From NCBI GenBank assembly GCA_017411785.1, contig JAFQPL010000010.1, positions 1 through 42,482 of the forward strand: a stretch of 42,482 nt of DNA. Direction: 5' to 3'. Of this stretch, positions 20,973 to 30,757 are shown piece by piece. A program made the translations under genes and the position numbers. The first letter of the stretch is position 1, and each line of letters starts with the position of its first letter. Source of the stretch: Clostridia bacterium. GTDB lineage: Bacteria; Bacillota; Clostridia; Oscillospirales; CAG-272. The notes under the pieces were generated by a model. That model saw only the letters and a list, made by a program, of their open reading frames with translations, was not told where the DNA came from and did no database searches.

Positions 20973-22070
20973 TTATTTGTTAAAAGTATTTATCCATTCA
21001 TTGCGCGCAAGCTCATATGTAAAAATTTGCGCGGCACGAGTTGGGTCGGAAAGCTCATCTGCATAAATGGATTTACCGTTTATCTGCCAGCCGTAAGGGT
21101 TTTCAAGCCTCAGCTTCTTTAGTGAATCGCAACCGACAAAGGTCTCCTCCCAAATGAATTTAACCGTATCGGGAATAGAGATGCTTTCGAGTGCGGAGCA
21201 ATACTTAAAGGCTTGCAGACCTATAGATGATAGATGCTTTGGCAGGGTAATATCTGTAAGCTTATCGCAGGAGAAAAAGGCTCGCCCGCCTATTACCTCG
21301 AGGCTTTGCGGCAAGTCTAAGCTTGAAATTGCCGAGCATTCGTAAAAGGCTTCGTTTCCGATAATACGCAGAGAGCCTTGATCTGAAAAGCTTACGGCAG
21401 AAAGTGAGGCGCATCCTCGGAAAGCGCCGCGTTCAATGCTTTTTAGCAGGCATCTGTCCGCAAATATAAGACTTTTAAGATGCTTGCAGGAGCTAAAGCT
21501 CCATTCTCCGAGATAAACTACGCTTGTGGGGATTTCAACCGAATTGAGAGAGGCGCCCGAAAAGGCGTAATCACCAATCGATCTAAGCGCTTGCGGAAGA
21601 TCGGCTTGTAGGATGCCACAGTCTGAAAAGGCGTATCTGCCGATAGAGATAAGACCTTTGGGTAATTCTATGTGCTCGAGGCTTTTGCATCCTATAAAAG
21701 TGTAATTGCTTATTTTGCTTAATTTGCGCGGAAGCGTTACCGATGAAAGAGCGGTACAAAAGCCGAATGCCCGTTTGCCTATTGAATTAACGGTATCGGG
21801 GATTGAAATTGATTTTAGGCTTGAGCAACGGTAAAACGCCTTTTCACCTATCTCAAGAAGATCTTCAGGAAGCTTTACCGAGATTATTTTATCGTGCTTG
21901 CAAAATGCAAAAGGCGCGATTTTTTTTACAGGAAATCCTTCATAGGAGTCTGCGATTACAATGTTGGATAAATCCTCATCACAACCCGTGATAGTGGCTA
22001 TACCGTTTTCTATAGTGTAGAAAATTCCCGCCGAGGAGCCCGAGCGTTGTATAGAATTGATTTCTTTCAT
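20973..22070 (-). CDS. BspA-type leucine-rich-repeat protein with no recognisable signal peptide
   Basis: It contains about 12 tandem ~23-aa LRR_5-like units (L..I.IP..V..IG..AF..C..L). The RBS is AAGGAGGAG. Confidence 0.8.
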   Translation of the reverse strand: MKEINSIQRSGSSAGIFYTIENGIATITGCDEDLSNIVIADSYEGFPVKKIAPFAFCKHDKIISVKLPEDLLEIGEKAFYRCSSLKSISIPDTVNSIGKRAFGFCTALSSVTLPRKLSKISNYTFIGCKSLEHIELPKGLISIGRYAFSDCGILQADLPQALRSIGDYAFSGASLNSVEIPTSVVYLGEWSFSSCKHLKSLIFADRCLLKSIERGAFRGCASLSAVSFSDQGSLRIIGNEAFYECSAISSLDLPQSLEVIGGRAFFSCDKLTDITLPKHLSSIGLQAFKYCSALESISIPDTVKFIWEETFVGCDSLKKLRLENPYGWQINGKSIYADELSDPTRAAQIFTYELARNEWINTFNK

Positions 22071-22091: not shown

Positions 22092-22120
22092 ATTATAGCA
22101 TAAAACCCTTTGTTTTTCAA
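22092..22120 (-). promoter_or_regulatory. near-consensus sigma-A promoter reading into the LRR gene (TTGAAA-17-TATAAT with TGn)
   Basis: On the minus strand, TTGAAA lies at 22120-22115 and TATAAT at 22097-22092, preceded by TGC. It directly abuts the repeat array. Confidence 0.65.
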
Positions 22121-22300
22121 GTGAAATATTCGGCGTTGCCGAATGTGAAATAATTCACTTTGTGAATTGTGAAATATTGCTACCTTTGGTCGCAATGTGA
22201 AATGAAATTCGCCACTTCACATTTGCGAAGCAAATATTTCACAGCGGAGCTATTTCACTTGGCGGAGCCATATTTCACTTGCCGAAGGCGAATTTCGTTG
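22121..22300. repeat. GTGAAAT/ATTTCAC motif plus mini-hairpin array (copy 1 of a two-copy element)
   Basis: GTGAAAT occurs at 22121, 22145, 22169 and 22197. The complement ATTTCAC occurs at 22236, 22252 and 22272. Spacers are short self-complementary segments (CGGCGTTGCCG, ATTTGCGAAGCAAAT, TGGCGGAGCCA, GCCGAAGGC). The array is homologous to 30545-30757 in inverted orientation. Confidence 0.85.
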
Positions 22301-22342
22301 AAAAAAGCACACATTTGTCTGCTGACAAATGTGTGCTTTTTT
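22301..22342 (-). terminator. intrinsic terminator flush with the tRNA-Gln 3' end (part of the repeated element)
   Basis: The sequence is AAAAAAGCACACATTTGTC-TGCT-GACAAATGTGTGCTTTTTT. It is almost identical to the hairpin at 30500-30544. Confidence 0.85.
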
Positions 22343-22343
22343 C

Positions 22344-22417
22344 TGGCTGGGGTGGAAAGAATCGAACTTTCCCGGCGAGAGTCAAAGTCTCGTGTCCTAC
22401 CACTAGACTACACCCCA
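22344..22417 (-). tRNA. tRNA-Gln (anticodon UUG)
   Basis: The reverse complement TGGGGTGTAGTCTAGTGGTAGGACACGAGACTTTGACTCTCGCCGGGAAAGTTCGATTCTTTCCACCCCAGCCA folds as a cloverleaf. The acceptor stem is TGGGGTG/CACCCCA, the anticodon stem CGAGA/TCTCG, the anticodon loop CTTTGAC and the T-arm GAAAG-TTCGATT-CTTTC. CCA is encoded. Confidence 0.9.
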
Positions 22418-23833: not shown

Positions 23834-23862
23834 TTGAATTTGAAATAAAAATATGTTATAAT
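23834..23862 (+). promoter_or_regulatory. sigma-A-type promoter for the membrane-protein/P-II-like operon (TTGAAT-17-TATAAT with TGn)
   Basis: TTGAAT lies at 23834-23839 and TGT-TATAAT ends at 23862. Confidence 0.6.
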
Positions 23863-23897
23863 AAACTAAATGATCTTTGGTGTAAGGAGGGGTGTGC

Positions 23898-25436
23898 TTG
23901 AAGCTTTTTCGAAATACTATTCTTGCCGAAAAAATCAAAGAATCGCTTTCGTCTGTTTTACCGGTGGCGGCAATCGTATTCTTGCTTTTAATAACTATTG
24001 CGCCTGTCAGCGCGCCTATTCTTATATCCTTTATAATAGGCACTCTTTTGCTGGTGATAGGAATGGGTCTTTTCACGCTCGGAGCGCAGATGTCGATGAT
24101 GCCGATGGGTCAGTACGTTGGCTCTAAAATGACAAAAACAAAAAAGCTTTGGCTTGTATTGCTCGTTTCCTTTTTTGTCGGAGTTATGATAACGATATCC
24201 GAGCCCGACCTCACAGTGCTTTCAGAGCAGATATCCTCAATATCACCCTTTGCGCTGATCTTTTCAGTTGCTCTCGGTGTGGGGATCATGCTTGTTGTTG
24301 CAATGCTTCGTGTTGTGTTAAAAATAAAGCTTAAATATCTTTTGCTTTTCTTTTACGGAATAGTTTTTATTCTTGCTTTTTTTGTTCCGAGCAGCTTTTT
24401 AGCGCTCTCCTTTGATTCGGGCGGGGTTACAACGGGACCTATGACTGTACCGTTTATTATGGCTCTCGGAGTAGGTGTAACTGCTATAAGAGCCGATAAG
24501 GACGCGGACAACGACAGCTTTGGATTGGTTTCGCTTTGTTCTGTAGGTCCTATTATTGCGGTGATGCTCCTTGGAATAGTAAATAACGTTACCGAAATAG
24601 AGCCAACCGTTTACCCGACTCTTGTTTATACAGAATCCGACGATCTTTTTTGGATGTTTATAGGGCAGATACCGAAATATGCGGGAGAGGTCTTGATGGC
24701 TATAGGCCCTATAGTTGTGTTTTTCCTTGTATTCCGCGCGGCTACGGGAGGCATAGGCACGGGCGGACTCGGAAAGATAATCGTCGGAATAATTTATACC
24801 TTTGTGGGACTCACTATGTTTTTGACAGGCGTAAACGTGGGCTTTTTGCCGCTCGGACATGAGCTTGGCGAAATACTTGCCGCGTCTTCCTTGAAATGGC
24901 TTATAATTCCCGTAGGAATGATAATCGGTTATTTTATAGTTACCGCAGAGCCTGCTGTTCAAGTTTTAAAAAAGCAGGTAGAGGAGGAGACCGAGGGTGC
25001 AATTCCTGCTCGCGCGCTTTCTCTTACGCTTTCGGTCGGTGTTGCTATATCTATAGGTATAGCTATGCTCAGAGTGCTTACGGGAGTATCGATAATGTAT
25101 TTTATAGTTCCCGGATACCTTATAGCTATAGTGCTGTCCTTTGTAGTTCCCGATGTTTTTACATCGATCGCATTTGACTCGGGAGGTGTTGCATCAGGAC
25201 CTATGACGGCAACCTTCTTATTGCCGTTTGCAATGGGCGCTTGCGCTTCGGTTGGGGGAAATGTTGCAACCGATGCATTTGGAGTTGTTGCAATGGTTGC
25301 TATGACGCCTCTTATTGCTATACAGGTGCTTGGACTTATTTATAAGATCAAGCAGAGCAAGGGCATCAAGCTGGCAGATAGCAAGAACGCTTCCGCTGAA
25401 CCTGTAATAACCGATGAGGATATAATTGAGTTTTGA
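23898..25436 (+). CDS. polytopic membrane protein built from two homologous halves (DUF1538-like; family name recalled from memory)
   Basis: It has about 12 or more hydrophobic helices. The motif FDSGGVTTGPMTVPF (about 24409-24455) recurs as FDSGGVASGPMTATF (about 25171-25215). TTG 23898 is well spaced from the AAGGAGG RBS, whereas the track GTG at 23892 is too close to it. Confidence 0.75.
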   Translation: MKLFRNTILAEKIKESLSSVLPVAAIVFLLLITIAPVSAPILISFIIGTLLLVIGMGLFTLGAQMSMMPMGQYVGSKMTKTKKLWLVLLVSFFVGVMITISEPDLTVLSEQISSISPFALIFSVALGVGIMLVVAMLRVVLKIKLKYLLLFFYGIVFILAFFVPSSFLALSFDSGGVTTGPMTVPFIMALGVGVTAIRADKDADNDSFGLVSLCSVGPIIAVMLLGIVNNVTEIEPTVYPTLVYTESDDLFWMFIGQIPKYAGEVLMAIGPIVVFFLVFRAATGGIGTGGLGKIIVGIIYTFVGLTMFLTGVNVGFLPLGHELGEILAASSLKWLIIPVGMIIGYFIVTAEPAVQVLKKQVEEETEGAIPARALSLTLSVGVAISIGIAMLRVLTGVSIMYFIVPGYLIAIVLSFVVPDVFTSIAFDSGGVASGPMTATFLLPFAMGACASVGGNVATDAFGVVAMVAMTPLIAIQVLGLIYKIKQSKGIKLADSKNASAEPVITDEDIIEF

Positions 25437-25454
25437 GAGAGGGGGTAACCTAAG

Positions 25455-26165
25455 ATGCATAAGCTTTATCTGCTTTTAAATATCGTGAAGAGGTCGGATC
25501 TTAAGGAATATCGCGGTTTTTTTGAGAAAAACGGCGTTTCGGTTATCTATGATACTCTCGCAAACGGAACAGCGCATGAAAAAACGCTTTCATTGCTTGG
25601 AATCGAGCGCAATGAAAAAGCAATTCTGATATCGCTTATTACCTATCCGTCGTTAAAGAAAATTCTACGCAGACTTGAGGTAGAGATGCAGATAGATCTT
25701 CCCGATAGAGGAATAGCTGTTGCGGTTCCGCTTTCAAGTATAGGCGGAACGAAGTCGCTTGAGTATTTTAAGGAAGGTCAGGATATTCCGAAAGAGCTTG
25801 AAAATAACGTTAATGGGAAAGGAGAAACCGATAATATGCAAACCGTTCAGGAGCTTATTCTTGCAATATATGAAAAAGGATATACCGATCTTGTGATGGA
25901 TGCGGCGCGCGAGGCAGGCGCGCGAGGCGGAACTACTATTCGCGCAAAGGGAACAAGCGCGGGCGCGCAAAAATTTTTTGGAATAACGCTTGCCGATGAA
26001 AAGGAAATATTGCTTATTGTAACCTCCACGTCACAGAAAAATAATATAATGAAAGCTATTATGCAGAAGGCGGGAATGGACAGTAAGGCACATTCTATCG
26101 TGTTTTCACTTCCCGTTACCGACACGGCAGGCTTTCGTTTTACCGATGAAGTAGAAAAGGATTAA
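25455..26165 (+). CDS. tandem P-II-like (GlnB-superfamily fold) signal-transduction protein
   Basis: Two ~100-aa halves each show a beta-alpha-beta-beta-alpha-beta pattern. The second half (ELILAIYEKGYTDLVMDAAREAGARGGTTIRAKGTS...EKEILLIVT...IMKAI) resembles P-II proteins. It starts 19 nt after the membrane-protein gene. Confidence 0.65.
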   Translation: MHKLYLLLNIVKRSDLKEYRGFFEKNGVSVIYDTLANGTAHEKTLSLLGIERNEKAILISLITYPSLKKILRRLEVEMQIDLPDRGIAVAVPLSSIGGTKSLEYFKEGQDIPKELENNVNGKGETDNMQTVQELILAIYEKGYTDLVMDAAREAGARGGTTIRAKGTSAGAQKFFGITLADEKEILLIVTSTSQKNNIMKAIMQKAGMDSKAHSIVFSLPVTDTAGFRFTDEVEKD

Positions 26166-26171
26166 AGAGCG

Positions 26172-27008
26172 ATGGCGGTATTTAAAAGCTTTGATAAAAA
26201 AAGAATAGCCTTTGTAGGAAACAGCTTTACCTTTTACGGTAAATGTGTAAACGTTAACGCTTTTGACGGACTTGACGACGGTTATTTTTATCAGCTTGCC
26301 AGGAGTCTTGGCGATGATGTAACCGTAACTAATTTTACTTGGGGCGGTGCAAGCTTTTGGCATAAGGGAAGCGGATTTGCTCAAAGGATGCTGTATGAGA
26401 AGATGAAGGAGCTTCATCCTGCCTATTATAATAATCCCGAGGGGCTTCCTGTTGAGGATTTTTACCGTCAGGATGCGGTAGTGCTTCAACAGTCGGGAGA
26501 CAGGATAAAGGAGACCTATGAGGACGCAAGGCTTATAATGAGCCTTTTTGCTCCCGAAACCGTTTTTGGCTTTTATATTACTACCTATGATGCTTTTCAT
26601 GATTTTGAGCCAAGCTTTGAGGCGGCAGAGCGTATAAGAGACGGAGGCGGAGTTTATATTCCGCTCGGGCATATGGTAAACGATATAATCAAGGGTAACG
26701 CTATGGTTAAGGATTCGAAATTTGAATATAATAAGAATTCTTTTATAGTATGTAAGGAGGGCGACGGATTTCATCCTAATACGCTTACGGGATACCTTAC
26801 CGCGCTTACGGTATATTACGCGTTTACCGAAAGAGATATAACCGATGCGGCATACGATTTTGCCTGTGGCCTTGATAAAGAAAAGCATTATACCTTGGGA
26901 GAGACCAATCACGGTGAGATACTTTGCTCCGATAAGGAGCTGCGGTCGCTTAAGGAGCAGGTAATGCTGTATTGTAGGAGATATAATGCAAAACAAGATG
27001 AGCGGTAA
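26172..27008 (+). CDS. SGNH/GDSL-like hydrolase-fold protein (DUF4886-like); function unknown
   Basis: It has block I IAFVGNSFT, a GG block, and block V DGFHPN (DxxH). It starts 7 nt after the P-II-like gene. The antisense ORF 26106-26996 is rejected. Confidence 0.55.
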   Translation: MAVFKSFDKKRIAFVGNSFTFYGKCVNVNAFDGLDDGYFYQLARSLGDDVTVTNFTWGGASFWHKGSGFAQRMLYEKMKELHPAYYNNPEGLPVEDFYRQDAVVLQQSGDRIKETYEDARLIMSLFAPETVFGFYITTYDAFHDFEPSFEAAERIRDGGGVYIPLGHMVNDIIKGNAMVKDSKFEYNKNSFIVCKEGDGFHPNTLTGYLTALTVYYAFTERDITDAAYDFACGLDKEKHYTLGETNHGEILCSDKELRSLKEQVMLYCRRYNAKQDER

Positions 27009-28131
27009 TTCGTTGGGCGTATATTTACATATTCCGTTTTGTATAAAAAAATGTAACTACTGCGATTTTTGCTCGCTTGCAAATTCTGGTACCGAGCTTA
27101 TGCGTGAATATTCGCGTGAGCTTGCAAGACGCATACGCGAGTTTTCCGCGGTTTACGGAAAGCAGGCGGTGGATACCGTGTATTTTGGCGGCGGAACGCC
27201 AACGCTTTTGCCGTATAGCTGCTTTGAGGAGATATTTTTTGCCTTGAAGGATAGCTTTTTTATTGCGGATGATTCCGAAATCACCGTTGAAGGTAATCCT
27301 GCGAGCATTGATGCTAAGGGGCTTGCGGAGCTTCGTTCTCTCGGGGCAAACCGTTTAAGCATAGGCTTGCAAAGCGCAAATGACAACGAGCTTGATATGC
27401 TCGGAAGAGTACATAGCTTTTATGATTTTTGCAGCACTTACGAGGATGCAAGGCGGGTAGGCTTTGATAATATAAGCGTAGATCTTATGTACGGCTTGCC
27501 GTCGCAAACAAAGGATAAGCTTGAATATTCTCTTGAAAAGTTAATTGAGCTTTCTCCCGAGCATGTTTCGGTATATGGCTTAAAGATAGAGGAGGGAACT
27601 CATTTTTACAGGGAGCGTGATTTCCTTGATCTACCCGACGACGATACCTGCGCTGAATTTTATGAGCTTTGCTGCGAAAGACTTTTCGGATCGGGATACA
27701 GACGTTATGAGATAAGCAATTTTTCTCTTGAGGGCAGAGAGTCAAGGCATAATCTTAAATATTGGCGTCTTGATGATTACATTGGGTTTGGTGTGGCTGC
27801 GTATTCTTGCTTTCAGGGCGAAAGATTCGGAAACTCACGAAATATAAAGGGCTTTCTTGAGGGACGAGATATTTGTGAGTACAGACAGAAGATTTCCGAT
27901 AACGACAGGGTGTCTGAGTACGTTATGCTTGGACTTCGGTTGGAAAAGGGAATTGCTCTTGAGGATTATTATAGGATTTCAGGACAGGATTTTTTTGAAG
28001 CCTATCCTGCTGTTAAGGATTTTATAAGTAAAGGATTTATGACATTTGAGGAAGGACGTGTAGCTTTTTCAACTAAAGGCTTTCTTGTGAGTAACATTAT
28101 TCTTTCTGAAATTCTGTTCTTTGAGGATTAA
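26986..28131 (+). CDS. hemW: radical SAM heme chaperone HemW (coproporphyrinogen III oxidase-like)
   Basis: Motifs present: YLHIPFC..KC.YCDF, GGGTP, and a C-terminal HemN_C-like domain. It overlaps the upstream gene by 23 nt. ATG 26998 is an alternative start. Confidence 0.85.
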   Translation: MQNKMSGNSLGVYLHIPFCIKKCNYCDFCSLANSGTELMREYSRELARRIREFSAVYGKQAVDTVYFGGGTPTLLPYSCFEEIFFALKDSFFIADDSEITVEGNPASIDAKGLAELRSLGANRLSIGLQSANDNELDMLGRVHSFYDFCSTYEDARRVGFDNISVDLMYGLPSQTKDKLEYSLEKLIELSPEHVSVYGLKIEEGTHFYRERDFLDLPDDDTCAEFYELCCERLFGSGYRRYEISNFSLEGRESRHNLKYWRLDDYIGFGVAAYSCFQGERFGNSRNIKGFLEGRDICEYRQKISDNDRVSEYVMLGLRLEKGIALEDYYRISGQDFFEAYPAVKDFISKGFMTFEEGRVAFSTKGFLVSNIILSEILFFED

Positions 28132-30308: not shown

Positions 30309-30383
30309 GCTGGTGTGGCTCAATGGCAGAGCAGCTGATTTGTAATCAGCAGGTTGTTGGTTCGACTCCGATCACCAGCTCCA
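30309..30383 (+). tRNA. tRNA-Thr (anticodon UGU)
   Basis: GCTGGTGTGGCTCAATGGCAGAGCAGCTGATTTGTAATCAGCAGGTTGTTGGTTCGACTCCGATCACCAGCTCCA folds as a cloverleaf. The acceptor stem is GCTGGTG/CACCAGC, the anticodon stem GCTGA/TCAGC, the anticodon loop TTTGTAA and the T-loop TTCGACT. CCA is encoded. Confidence 0.9.
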
Positions 30384-30414
30384 AAGAGGCTTCACCAAGT
30401 GGAGCCTAAAATAT

Positions 30415-30499
30415 GGGGGATTTCCCGAGCGGCCAAAGGGGGCAGACTGTAAATCTGTTGTCACTGACTTCGGTGGTCCGAATCCACCATCCCCCACCA
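30415..30499 (+). tRNA. tRNA-Tyr (anticodon GUA), class II with a long variable arm
   Basis: The sequence is GGGGGATTTCCCGAGCGGCCAAAGGGGGCAGACTGTAAATCTGTTGTCACTGACTTCGGTGGTCCGAATCCACCATCCCCCACCA. The acceptor stem is GGGGGAT/ATCCCCC, the anticodon loop CTGTAAA, the variable stem GTC/GAC and the T-arm GGTGG-TCCGAAT-CCACC. The T-loop has C at position 55. Confidence 0.85.
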
Positions 30500-30544
30500 G
30501 AAAAAAGCACACATTTGTCTACTAAGACAATGTGTGCTTTTTTC
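30500..30544 (+). terminator. intrinsic terminator flush with the tRNA-Tyr 3' end (part of the repeated element)
   Basis: The sequence is GAAAAAAGCACACATTTGTC-TACTAA-GACAATGTGTGCTTTTTT. It is near-identical to 22301-22342 on the opposite strand. Confidence 0.85.
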
Positions 30545-30757
30545 AACGAAATTTGCCCTGCGGGCAAGTGAAATAGCTGTGCTGTGAAATATTTGCTTCG
30601 CAAATGTGAAATATTCGCTGACGCGAATGTGGGCAAATTTCATTTCACATCGAACAGAGCCGTAGGCGACGTGAGATATTTCACAATGCGCAATAGCACA
30701 TTATTTCACGTTTTGCGCAAGCAAAACATTTCACTGCAACCGCAGGCGATGCATCAT
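30545..30757. repeat. GTGAAAT/ATTTCAC motif plus mini-hairpin array (copy 2)
   Basis: GTGAAAT occurs at 30568, 30584 and 30606. ATTTCAC occurs at 30642, 30678, 30703 and 30728. Spacers form short hairpins (TTGCCCTGCGGGCAA, ATTTGCTTCGCAAAT, ATTCGCTGACGCGAAT, TTTTGCGCAAGCAAAA). Confidence 0.85.

What the first reader, a model, noticed from the sequence alone, without database searches (positions are those of the whole stretch)
23834..26165. Internally duplicated membrane protein co-transcribed with a tandem P-II-like protein: candidate P-II-gated transporter of unknown substrate
The protein encoded at 23898-25436 is polytopic and consists of two homologous halves. Each half carries the strongly conserved motif FDSGGV(T/A)(T/S)GPMT(V/A)(P/T)F, at about 24409-24455 and 25171-25215. 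This looks like an inverted-repeat transporter architecture (DUF1538-like, from memory). Nineteen nt downstream, 25455-26165 encodes a 236-aa protein that reads as two fused P-II/GlnB-like ferredoxin-fold domains. The second is clear (ELILAIYEKGYTDLVMDAAREAGARGGTTIRAKG...EKEILLIVT...IMKAI) and the first is more diverged. Known P-II-like proteins gate adjacent transporters, as in AmtB-GlnK and SbtA-SbtB. A covalently duplicated P-II paired with a pseudo-dimeric membrane protein would be a distinct variant of that logic. To my knowledge this membrane family has no assigned substrate. The operon continues with a 7-nt gap into an SGNH-like hydrolase and then a 23-nt overlap into hemW. That is an unusual context for hemW.
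Basis: partly seen in the sequence, partly recalled or inferred. Interest (0 to 1): 0.66.

Follow-up and report, generated by a model that had tools for sequence, protein, structure and literature searches.

The report
Membrane transporter with dedicated double P-II partner
This is a conserved two-gene unit, a DUF1538 (UmpAB-family) membrane transporter plus a double P-II-type signalling protein that almost certainly binds it, which looks like an undescribed third family of P-II-partnered transporters, common in gut Clostridia.

Summary
23898-25436 encodes a 512-aa protein with two DUF1538 domains (halves 30% identical, E=1e-32). 25455-26165 encodes a 236-aa true tandem of two P-II-like domains (N-half vs C-half profiles: HHalign 98.9%, E=4e-17).

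The pairing is close to universal: 145 of 146 evaluable DUF1538 loci have a P-II gene just downstream. Fused DUF1538 goes with a tandem P-II. Split A+B pairs mostly have one P-II. About 27 protein clusters are natural DUF1538-P-II fusions, which argues for physical contact. HemW and the 278-aa ORF are neighbours only in close relatives.

The window protein is only a distant relative (164/140 bits vs equivalog cut-offs 490/500). The DUF1538 model (pLDDT 80) has no structural neighbour in the PDB. The P-II domains lack the canonical GDGK ATP-binding loop, so the ligand is unknown.

Best reading: a cation/proton-type transporter regulated by a bound P-II-like sensor, analogous to AmtB-GlnK and SbtA-SbtB. 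I found no paper describing this. It is a new variant of a known kind; interest 0.6.

The parts
23834..23862 (+). Promoter-like site, TTGAAT-17 nt-TATAAT with a TG extended -10
   Evidence: 10/12 matches, TG present. No Rfam riboswitch lies between it and the start codon.
23884..23890 (+). Shine-Dalgarno AAGGAGG, 7 nt before TTG 23898
   Evidence: Sequence printed. It supports the TTG 23898 start, which agrees with the 512-aa public gene calls.
23898..25436 (+). Fused two-domain DUF1538 (UmpAB-family) polytopic membrane protein, 512 aa
   Evidence: Pfam PF07556, 450 bits, 2 stretches. NCBIfam UmpA 164.5 and UmpB 140 bits, below the equivalog cut-offs of 490/500. AlphaFold2 pLDDT 80.4 and pTM 0.79, 7 helical units per repeat. 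No PDB structural neighbour.
23967..24581 (+). DUF1538 repeat 1 (A-type, resembles the first gene of split systems)
   Evidence: Pfam stretch at residues 26-230 of the 514-aa ORF. Alignment with the Methylocystis A/B genes.
24783..25355 (+). DUF1538 repeat 2 (B-type, with the EE..G.I insertion shared with the B genes of split systems)
   Evidence: BLASTP of half against half, E=1e-32. Alignment A6.
24411..24461 (+). Signature motif FDSGGVTTGPMTVPFIM at a helix break in the sixth helical unit of repeat 1
   Evidence: position. (break between H165-179 and H183-195). The motif core (FDSGGV, G-P-M-T) is invariant across both repeats in alignment A2.
25173..25223 (+). Signature motif FDSGGVASGPMTATFLL at the equivalent helix break of repeat 2
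   Evidence: (H419-431 | H435-452).
25437..25454 (+). 18-nt intergenic spacer with the ribosome-binding site GAGAGGGGG for the P-II gene; no terminator
25455..26165 (+). Tandem P-II-like protein, 236 aa (two ferredoxin-like P-II domains joined by a variable acidic linker)
   Evidence: The family has 2264 clusters at 50% identity with E<=1e-3.
25455..25754 (+). N-terminal, diverged P-II-like domain (aa 1-100). It lacks the beta2 GGT motif.
   Evidence: HHalign against the C-half: 98.9%, E=4e-17. Weak PDB profile hit to the P-II chain of 9p1x, E=0.08. Secondary structure.
25560..25616 (+). T-loop-like insertion of the N-domain (aa 36-54, ANGTAHEKTLSLLGIERNE)
   Evidence: More conserved than every N-domain core element except beta4 (IC 2.34; beta4 2.55, other core elements 1.1-1.9; G38 98%, T39 93%, G49 90%, K55 90%). 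Low-confidence loop between beta2 and beta3 in the model.
25845..26144 (+). C-terminal P-II domain (aa 131-230), the more ancestral-looking one
   Evidence: Pfam PF00543, 30.9 bits vs GA 25. PDB profile hits to P-II proteins: 9p1x E=1e-5, then 2o66 and 2eg1. The single P-II genes of split systems score best with this half's profile.
25947..26000 (+). T-loop-like insertion of the C-domain (aa 165-182, KGTSAGAQKFFGITLADE)
   Evidence: IC 2.57; G166 91%, F174 96%, G176 90%, E182 95%.
26172..27008 (+). 278-aa ORF of unknown function. Co-oriented neighbour, NOT part of the conserved module.
   Evidence: No Pfam or NCBIfam family. Only DUF4886 at E=0.018, below threshold. Present next to the pair only in close relatives L001/L002.
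26986..28131 (+). hemW (radical SAM haem chaperone). Lineage-specific neighbour, NOT part of the conserved module; its exact start is uncertain.
   Evidence: TIGR00539, 292 bits. Absent next to the pair in the 80 loci L003-L082.

Best explanation
The conserved unit is a two-gene module.

Gene 1 encodes a secondary transporter of the DUF1538/UmpAB family. Two homologous seven-helix units (A-type and B-type), probably inserted antiparallel in the membrane, are fused into one chain. Each unit contributes a broken helix carrying FDSGGVxxGPMT, plus invariant membrane-embedded Glu (the EP motif), Arg and Asp.

Gene 2 encodes a cytoplasmic P-II-like protein made of two fused P-II domains. This protein binds the cytoplasmic face of the transporter. 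Through its two conserved T-loop-like insertions it switches transport on or off in response to a small-molecule signal. The C-domain keeps a P-II-like core (GGT in beta2). The N-domain has kept mainly its loop.

By homology with UmpAB, and from the recurrent CPA antiporter and P-type cation ATPase neighbours in split-type loci, the transported species is most likely monovalent cations exchanged for protons.

Shown: homology, architecture, near-universal adjacency and the existence of natural fusions.
Inferred: physical binding (strongly), regulation via the T-loops, the cation/proton substrate, and the direction of regulation.

Confidence by step: about 0.85 for a dedicated physical partnership, about 0.45 for cation/H+ as substrate, about 0.4 for an inhibitory T-loop plug.
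For: - Family assignment: PF07556 twice and PF00543; UmpA/UmpB NCBIfam similarity.
- Tandem P-II: HHalign N-half vs C-half E=4e-17. The AlphaFold2 model has two P-II-like units with loops between beta2 and beta3. Foldseek top hits are GlnK1, plant/algal PII and SbtB at probability 1.0.
- Adjacency in species genomes: in all 77 loci (several Clostridia families) with sequence downstream, a P-II-like gene follows the fused DUF1538 gene on the same strand: one tandem gene in 76, two ORFs in L048.
- Adjacency overall: 145/146 evaluable loci once metagenomic and plasmid loci are added, including Alphaproteobacteria annotated by RefSeq as 'DUF1538 domain-containing protein' + 'P-II family nitrogen regulator'.
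- No other neighbour is conserved among the fused-type Clostridia loci, so the pair is the unit.
- Natural fusions of the B-type DUF1538 to a P-II domain at its predicted cytoplasmic C-terminus: L093; about 27 clusters at 46-100% identity to the L093 protein, from four sources; confirmed in context in L167 and L168.
- Annotated genes overlap or nearly abut (L084, L085, L086), which suggests translational coupling.
- The T-loop-like insertions are among the most conserved segments, while the inter-domain linker is free to vary.
- Substrate: UmpAB alone confers Na+(Li+,K+)/H+ antiport in E. coli KNabc (PMC5484666), so a P-II would be regulatory and not essential. CPA Na+/H+ exchangers flank the module in 5 split-type loci and P-type cation ATPases in 4.
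Against:
- The window protein and all the P-II-linked split pairs tested are far below the UmpA/UmpB equivalog cut-offs. The family's only functional assignment rests on one heterologous study.
- I could not check whether Halomonas umpAB itself has a P-II neighbour.
- The Clostridia loci carry no cation-related context and no riboswitch.
- The canonical P-II effector site is not conserved. The GDGK B-loop aligns with A-H-S-I, R101 with Gly, R38/Q39 are absent, and the P-II signature patterns are absent in 115/115 representatives. So the ligand, and even whether one is bound, is unknown.
- The tandem P-II model has only moderate confidence (pLDDT 64.5).
- The oligomeric states are unknown. P-II proteins are trimers, whereas UmpAB was reported as a heterodimer.
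- One fused DUF1538 locus has no P-II (L131) and one has a single domain (L110).
Confidence: 0.6

Rival explanations
1. The partnership is the same, but the P-II-like protein is an obligatory or activating cytoplasmic subunit (in the manner of RCK/KtrA-type gating rings on KtrB/TrkH) and not an inhibitory plug like GlnK or SbtB.
For: Near-obligate co-occurrence (145/146) and covalent fusion in a whole lineage fit a permanent subunit at least as well as a reversible inhibitor. The canonical nucleotide site that drives GlnK release is not conserved.
Against: The distant homologue UmpAB works in E. coli from a subclone holding only umpA and umpB (PMC5484666). Rare loci lack the P-II (L131).
Confidence: 0.25
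2. The module is a P-II-regulated transporter for a different substrate (for example bicarbonate, ammonium, K+ uptake, or an organic ion), and the UmpAB antiport activity is not representative of this distant Clostridia branch.
For: The window protein scores only 164/140 bits against UmpA/UmpB models with cut-offs of 490/500. The known P-II-transporter pairs handle N and C nutrients. The fold has no solved relative to constrain the substrate. The Clostridia loci give no substrate context.
Against: Invariant membrane-embedded Glu/Asp/Arg in each repeat, together with CPA antiporter and cation ATPase neighbours in split-type loci, fit cation/proton handling. There is no homology to Amt or SbtA.
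Confidence: 0.35
3. The adjacency reflects co-expression only. The P-II-like protein would be a general metabolic regulator acting on other targets and would not touch the transporter.
For: Canonical P-II proteins have many targets. No interaction was tested here.
Against: The pair travels as a unit through unrelated genomic contexts in Bacillota, Pseudomonadota and Chloroflexota-type contigs, with no other conserved neighbour. Recurrent in-frame DUF1538-P-II fusions also argue against it. The P-II domains lack the canonical GlnB/GlnK signatures.
Confidence: 0.05

Closest known systems
UmpAB of Halomonas zhaodongensis, a two-component Na+(Li+,K+)/H+ antiporter (DUF1538; PMC5484666; NCBIfam NF041627/NF041628)
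   Same: Same Pfam family (PF07556). Two homologous units of about seven transmembrane segments that must act together. The FDSGGV..GPMT motif is shared across the family.
   Different: UmpA and UmpB are separate genes, whereas here A- and B-type units are fused in one 512-aa chain. Similarity is far below the equivalog cut-offs (164/140 vs 490/500 bits). No P-II partner was described for UmpAB, and I could not check its genome. The host is a halophilic gammaproteobacterium, not an anaerobic Clostridia bacterium.
AmtB-GlnK (ammonium channel plugged by a P-II protein)
   Same: A P-II-family gene co-transcribed with a membrane transporter. A T-loop between beta2 and beta3 is available for insertion into the cytoplasmic face.
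   Different: The transporter is unrelated in sequence and predicted fold. The P-II here is a covalent tandem and lacks the GDGK B-loop, R38/Q39, R101 and the uridylylation-site signature. Substrate and ligand are unknown.
SbtA-SbtB (cyanobacterial Na+-dependent bicarbonate transporter and its P-II-like regulator)
   Same: A non-canonical P-II-like protein dedicated to one adjacent secondary transporter. SbtB is among the Foldseek hits (6mm2, 5o3q).
   Different: There is no homology between DUF1538 and SbtA (no PDB hit). SbtB is a single domain. Sequence-profile similarity to SbtB is marginal (E about 0.6).
NifI1/NifI2-type P-II proteins of methanogens (PDB 9p1x; bioRxiv 10.1101/2025.09.09.675011)
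   Same: The best solved-structure sequence match for both halves (C-half E=1e-5, N-half E=0.08). From general knowledge, NifI1 and NifI2 are two different P-II paralogues that work as one hetero-oligomer, which is a precedent for two non-identical P-II domains acting together.
   Different: Their target is nitrogenase, not a transporter. They are separate polypeptides and respond to 2-oxoglutarate and ATP.
PstA/DarA, the c-di-AMP-binding P-II-like proteins of Bacillota
   Same: P-II-like fold in the same phylum. c-di-AMP signalling controls cation and osmolyte transporters there (general knowledge).
   Different: No Pfam hit other than PF00543 at E<=0.01, so there is no sign of the c-di-AMP receptor family. 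PstA/DarA are single-domain and not transporter-linked.

Membership tests
DUF1538 / UmpAB transporter family (Pfam PF07556) | Profile match above Pfam's gathering score | tested here: met
   450 bits vs 22.6, two stretches.
DUF1538 / UmpAB transporter family (Pfam PF07556) | Two homologous units of about 7 transmembrane segments (paired genes or a fusion) with the FDSGGV..GPMT motif | tested here: met
   Halves 30% identical, E=1e-32. Seven helical units per repeat in the AlphaFold2 model. The motif core (FDSGGV, G-P-M-T) is invariant in both repeats. The A/B correspondence with split genes is shown.
UmpA/UmpB equivalogs (NCBIfam NF041627/NF041628) | Score at or above the curated equivalog cut-off (490/500 bits) | tested here: not met
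   164.5 and 140 bits. It is a family member, not an ortholog.
UmpA/UmpB equivalogs (NCBIfam NF041627/NF041628) | Na+(Li+,K+)/H+ antiport activity | not testable with these tools
   Needs vesicle or complementation assays as in PMC5484666.
P-II superfamily (Pfam PF00543) | Profile match above the gathering score | tested here: met
   C-half: 30.9 bits vs 25. N-half: only via homology to the C-half (HHalign E=4e-17) and a weak hit to 9p1x (E=0.08). In the Peptoclostridium tandem, both halves match Pfam directly (66 bits, 2 stretches).
P-II superfamily (Pfam PF00543) | Ferredoxin-like beta-alpha-beta-beta-alpha-beta fold with a T-loop between beta2 and beta3 | tested here: met
   AlphaFold2 secondary structure for both domains (pLDDT 64.5, moderate). 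Foldseek matches to GlnK, PII and SbtB at probability 1.0, E about 1e-5, about one domain aligned.
   0 of 115 family representatives match either pattern.
Canonical GlnB/GlnK P-II proteins | ATP/ADP and 2-oxoglutarate contact residues (G27, T29, G35, G37, R38, Q39, K58, G87, G89, K90, R101, R103) | tested here: not met
   G27, T29 and G35 are conserved in the C-domain. R38 and Q39 are absent. G87/D88/G89/K90 align with A/H/S/I, and R101 aligns with Gly (98% conserved). The N-domain also lacks G27/T29.
Canonical GlnB/GlnK P-II proteins | Homotrimeric assembly | not testable with these tools
   Only single-chain prediction was available.
P-II-gated transporter systems (AmtB-GlnK, SbtA-SbtB type) | Conserved co-directional adjacency of the P-II gene and the transporter gene | tested here: met
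   145/146 evaluable loci across Bacillota, Pseudomonadota and metagenomic lineages.
P-II-gated transporter systems (AmtB-GlnK, SbtA-SbtB type) | The transporter belongs to the Amt or SbtA family | tested here: not met
   The only Pfam family is DUF1538. No PDB sequence or fold match.
P-II-gated transporter systems (AmtB-GlnK, SbtA-SbtB type) | Direct complex with T-loop insertion into the transporter, released by an effector | not testable with these tools
   Indirect support only: recurrent natural DUF1538-P-II fusions and conserved T-loops.
c-di-AMP receptor PstA/DarA family | Profile match to the c-di-AMP receptor family | tested here: not met
   The Pfam scan at E<=0.01 returned only PF00543.

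The most novel reading that the evidence does not exclude
DUF1538 proteins are a structurally new class of secondary transporter (no solved relative) that is, as a family-wide rule, governed by its own branch of the P-II superfamily. This would be a third P-II-transporter system beside AmtB-GlnK and SbtA-SbtB. In Clostridia the sensor has been duplicated in tandem. One P-II-like domain would sense a non-canonical ligand, because the adenylate/2-oxoglutarate site is lost; c-di-AMP or another signal is conceivable. The other domain would have specialised as a loop-bearing effector matched to the asymmetric, antiparallel A/B transporter. This would link ion or pH homeostasis of abundant gut anaerobes to metabolic signalling.
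Probability: 0.4. Interest if true: 0.75.

Novelty: new variant of a known kind. Interest (0 to 1): 0.6.

Why it matters
P-II proteins are among the most widespread signal transducers. Direct control of transport by a bound P-II is documented for two families only, AmtB-GlnK and SbtA-SbtB (bioRxiv 10.1101/2023.08.10.552651).

Here a third transporter family, with no solved structure, turns out to be partnered with a P-II gene in essentially every locus examined. The partnership spans Bacillota, Pseudomonadota and Chloroflexota-type lineages, and some lineages fuse the two proteins.

The tandem P-II family alone comprises more than 2000 clusters at 50% identity and is common in human and animal gut Clostridia (Faecalibacterium, Lachnospiraceae, Oscillospiraceae).

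The finding has three uses:
- It gives a concrete, testable function ('regulatory subunit of the DUF1538 transporter') to thousands of genes now annotated only as 'P-II family nitrogen regulator'.
- It warns that this annotation is misleading, because the canonical nitrogen-signalling residues are missing.
- It suggests that the one biochemical study of the family (UmpAB) examined the transporter without its probable regulator.

Tried and rejected
1. SbtA-, AmtB- or NhaA-like fold for DUF1538. Rejected: a confident model (pLDDT 80) finds nothing in the PDB (best E=0.067, TM<=0.2), and sequence and profile searches of the PDB are empty.
2. A riboswitch upstream as a substrate clue. None found in the window or in 18 diverse loci.
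3. hemW and the 278-aa ORF as part of the system. Rejected: they sit next to the pair only in near relatives. The SGNH assignment is unsupported.
4. The long hits P0355 and P0385 as DUF1538-P-II fusions. Rejected: they carry three DUF1538 stretches and no P-II.
5. The split pairs next to a P-II as true UmpAB orthologs. Rejected: 78-138 bits against cut-offs of 490/500.
6. A strict rule 'fused transporter = tandem P-II, split = single P-II'. It is only a strong tendency.
7. Apparent exceptions. L147 is a truncated or chimeric contig. L110 truly has one P-II domain and L131 truly has none. The 'L001 split/none' row is a script artefact.
8. The residue table for GlnB positions above 55 is shifted by the alignment option used. 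I relied on the printed alignment and instead.
9. Literature searches for DUF1538, UmpAB, tandem/fused P-II and PII-like plus antiporter found no description of this pairing. The library covers only open-access papers, so absence is not proof.


Full report
OBSERVATION.

The two ORFs exist as described. The membrane protein most likely starts at TTG 23898. An AAGGAGG Shine-Dalgarno sequence ends 7 nt upstream of it (sequence), and the public gene calls for 96-99% identical proteins are 512 aa. Pfam assigns two DUF1538 (PF07556) stretches at 450 bits. The two halves align at 30% identity with E=1e-32. The FDSGGV(T/A)(T/S)GPMT motifs lie at 24411-24461 and 25173-25223.

Eighteen nucleotides downstream, behind a GAGAGGGGG ribosome-binding site, lies the 236-aa ORF. 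Pfam recognises P-II only in residues 134-228 (30.9 bits, gathering score 25). I built profiles from 114 divergent full-length relatives found by an exhaustive search. With them, the N-half and C-half align over 97 columns with HHalign probability 98.9% and E=4e-17. The protein is therefore a true tandem duplication.

An AlphaFold2 model (pLDDT 64.5) shows two beta-alpha-beta/loop/beta-alpha-beta units (4-92 and 132-220). Each has a low-confidence loop where P-II proteins carry the T-loop. Foldseek returns GlnK1, plant/algal PII and SbtB at probability 1.0. A promoter-like site with an extended -10 sits at 23834-23862. No riboswitch precedes the genes.

IS THE PAIRING CONSERVED?

I scanned one genome per species using an alignment of half-domains, so that only family-wide motifs were used. 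The scan found 594 relatives and returned the best 80 loci. They belong to Lachnospiraceae, Oscillospiraceae, Christensenellaceae, Faecalibacterium and other Clostridia, at 52-72% identity.

In all 77 loci with sequence downstream, a P-II-like gene follows the fused DUF1538 gene on the same strand. It is one tandem gene in 76 and two ORFs in L048. It is directly adjacent in all but L074, which has a gap of about 800 bp. The other three loci end inside the gene. None of the window's other neighbours (metallo-beta-lactamase-like gene, 278-aa ORF, HemW, DUF1292) is found there. Clustering of all flanking ORFs shows no recurrent neighbour. The conserved unit is therefore just the two genes. The hemW context is lineage-specific: it is seen only in L001 and L002, at 74% identity.

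More distant, annotated examples came from plasmid records:
- Methylocystis and Chelativorans (Alphaproteobacteria) carry two separate DUF1538 genes followed by a single-domain 'P-II family nitrogen regulator' of 112-122 aa.
- Peptoclostridium and Paraclostridium carry a fused DUF1538 gene followed by a 222-aa tandem P-II. In the Peptoclostridium protein (L085, the one scanned), both halves match Pfam directly.

A metagenome scan anchored on the split type added 80 loci. A domain-level tabulation of all evaluable loci (with exceptions resolved) gives:
- Fused DUF1538: about 114 with a tandem P-II in one ORF, 3 with two P-II ORFs, 1 with a single domain (L110), 1 truncated or chimeric contig (L147), 1 with none (L131).
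- Split A+B genes: 18 with a single P-II, about 8-9 with two P-II domains (as two genes or as a tandem).

A P-II partner is thus present in 145 of 146 evaluable loci. The fused/tandem association is strong (Fisher p=2e-14) but not absolute. It is also not corrected for shared ancestry.

ROSETTA-STONE FUSIONS.

In L093 the B-type DUF1538 gene runs in frame into a P-II domain (356 aa). My last homolog search showed that this is a lineage and not an error:
- About 27 clusters, mostly 349-373 aa, at 46-100% identity to the L093 protein; 25 carry both PF07556 and PF00543.
- They come from JGI, ENA, NCBI and Logan, and one is named as Dehalococcoidales.
- They sit on contigs of up to 943 kb.

Gene contexts in L167 and L168 show an A-type gene followed by the B-P-II fusion. 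The fusion point is the lysine-rich C-terminus that the topology analysis places in the cytoplasm. This is the strongest available evidence that the P-II protein contacts the transporter.

THE TRANSPORTER.

DUF1538 is not uncharacterised. UmpA and UmpB of Halomonas zhaodongensis, two paired DUF1538 proteins, confer Na+(Li+,K+)/H+ antiport on E. coli KNabc when co-expressed from a subclone containing only those two genes (PMC5484666). NCBI has curated equivalog models for them. The window protein matches these models at 164.5 and 140 bits, far below the cut-offs of 490 and 500. The P-II-linked split pairs also fall far below (78-138 bits). These are family members and not orthologs, so the substrate is transferred only as a hypothesis.

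The AlphaFold2 model of the 512-aa protein is good (pLDDT 80.4, pTM 0.79). It shows seven helical units per repeat, with the signature motif at a helix break. It has no significant structural neighbour in the PDB (best E=0.067, probability 0.33, TM<=0.2), and sequence and profile searches of the PDB are empty. The fold is therefore structurally uncharted, and it is not SbtA-, Amt- or NhaA-like by this test.

With an N-in, 7+7 topology, cytoplasmic loops carry 16.1 Lys+Arg on average against 2.0 outside. Equivalent loops of the two repeats show opposite bias. It remains a prediction, because a 6+hairpin parallel model is only moderately worse.

Glu (EP motif), Arg and the Asp of FDSGG are invariant in both repeats from Clostridia to Alphaproteobacteria. 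Among the roughly 32 split-type loci, a CPA-type Na+/H+ exchanger (some with RCK domains) is adjacent in 5 and a P-type cation ATPase in 4. Usp, ACT and CBS sensor proteins also occur. By rough reckoning this is well above chance, and it is consistent with a role in cation/pH homeostasis.

THE P-II PARTNER.

The best solved-structure match for both halves is the P-II chain of PDB 9p1x. This is a methanogen nitrogenase-PII supercomplex (bioRxiv 10.1101/2025.09.09.675011).

- The C-domain retains G27, T29 and G35 of the P-II nucleotide cleft (GGT is the most conserved element).
- The B-loop GDGK aligns with A-H-S-I, R101 aligns with a 98%-conserved Gly, and R38/Q39 are missing.
- The N-domain has lost the GGT motif as well. 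Its T-loop-like insertion (GTA..K.L..LG.E..EK) is more conserved than any of its core elements except beta4, while the inter-domain linker is unconstrained.

The single P-II genes of split systems resemble the C-domain. I infer that the C-domain is the ancestral-type sensing domain and that the N-domain is a derived domain kept for its loop.

MECHANISM (inferred).

The tandem P-II protein docks on the cytoplasmic face of the pseudo-heterodimeric transporter. Through its conserved loops it gates ion flux in response to a ligand that is probably not bound in the canonical MgATP/2-oxoglutarate mode.

Still open:
- Whether it inhibits transport (like GlnK and SbtB) or is an activating subunit.
- The substrate in Clostridia.
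- The oligomeric state.

NOVELTY.

RefSeq already names the two genes separately. Full-text searches found only the UmpAB paper for DUF1538. They found nothing on a DUF1538-P-II partnership, on a tandem P-II of this kind, or on the fusions. A 2023 preprint on P-II 'valve plugs' discusses only SbtA and AmtB. I therefore rate this a new variant of a known kind: P-II-partnered transporters, with a new transporter family, a tandem sensor and a non-canonical effector site.

It is well supported as a genomic association and untested biochemically. Interest is 0.6: the logic will not astonish specialists, but it is a widespread, cleanly testable system that re-annotates thousands of 'nitrogen regulator' genes.

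Noticed in passing
window 22119-22417 and 30309-30617: Three matches to the Rfam Gut-1 RNA family (RF01706; 52-63 bits, gathering score 50) lie directly beside tRNA genes, on both strands at the first site.
   Followed up: no
L093 3964-5034; L167 4001-5071; L168 2520-3623; proteins P0391-P0415, P0480, P0481: A lineage (one member named Dehalococcoidales) in which the B-type DUF1538 subunit is fused in frame to a P-II domain, preceded by a separate A-type gene.
   Followed up: yes
L093, L099, L103, L111, L167 (CPA exchanger); L090, L095, L112, L152 (P-type ATPase): Split-type DUF1538/P-II modules are repeatedly flanked by Na_H_Exchanger genes (some with TrkA_N/TrkA_C domains) or by P-type cation ATPase genes. 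Usp, ACT-pair and CBS genes also occur.
   Followed up: partly
L110 5416-5859 and L131 1532-2023: Two divergent fused DUF1538 genes are followed by a hydrogenase-maturation-protease-like ORF. L110 has only one P-II domain before it. L131 has none and is the only evaluable locus without a P-II partner.
   Followed up: partly
proteins P0355 (679 aa) and P0385 (692 aa): Close relatives of the window's membrane protein that carry three DUF1538 stretches instead of two. This could be a real triplication or merged gene calls.
   Followed up: no
proteins P0135, P0173, P0183: Tandem-P-II relatives that appear joined to unrelated domains: MazE/SpoVT-type N-terminus, Metallophos_2 and Peripla_BP_3. They may be gene-call merges of neighbouring genes.
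   Followed up: no
window 26986-28131 (hemW): The 23-nt overlap with the upstream ORF depends on using the longest ORF. The homologous gene in L001 is called 49 codons shorter than its longest ORF, so the true hemW start, and therefore the overlap, is uncertain.
   Followed up: no
window 20973-22070 (- strand): A 365-aa protein made of BspA-type leucine-rich repeats (PF13306, 291 bits) lies upstream of the tRNA/Gut-1 cluster.
   Followed up: no
L147 4071-5158: The P-II N-domain breaks off after about 60 residues into an electron-transfer-flavoprotein-alpha-like sequence. This is probably an assembly chimera or a rearrangement.
   Followed up: partly
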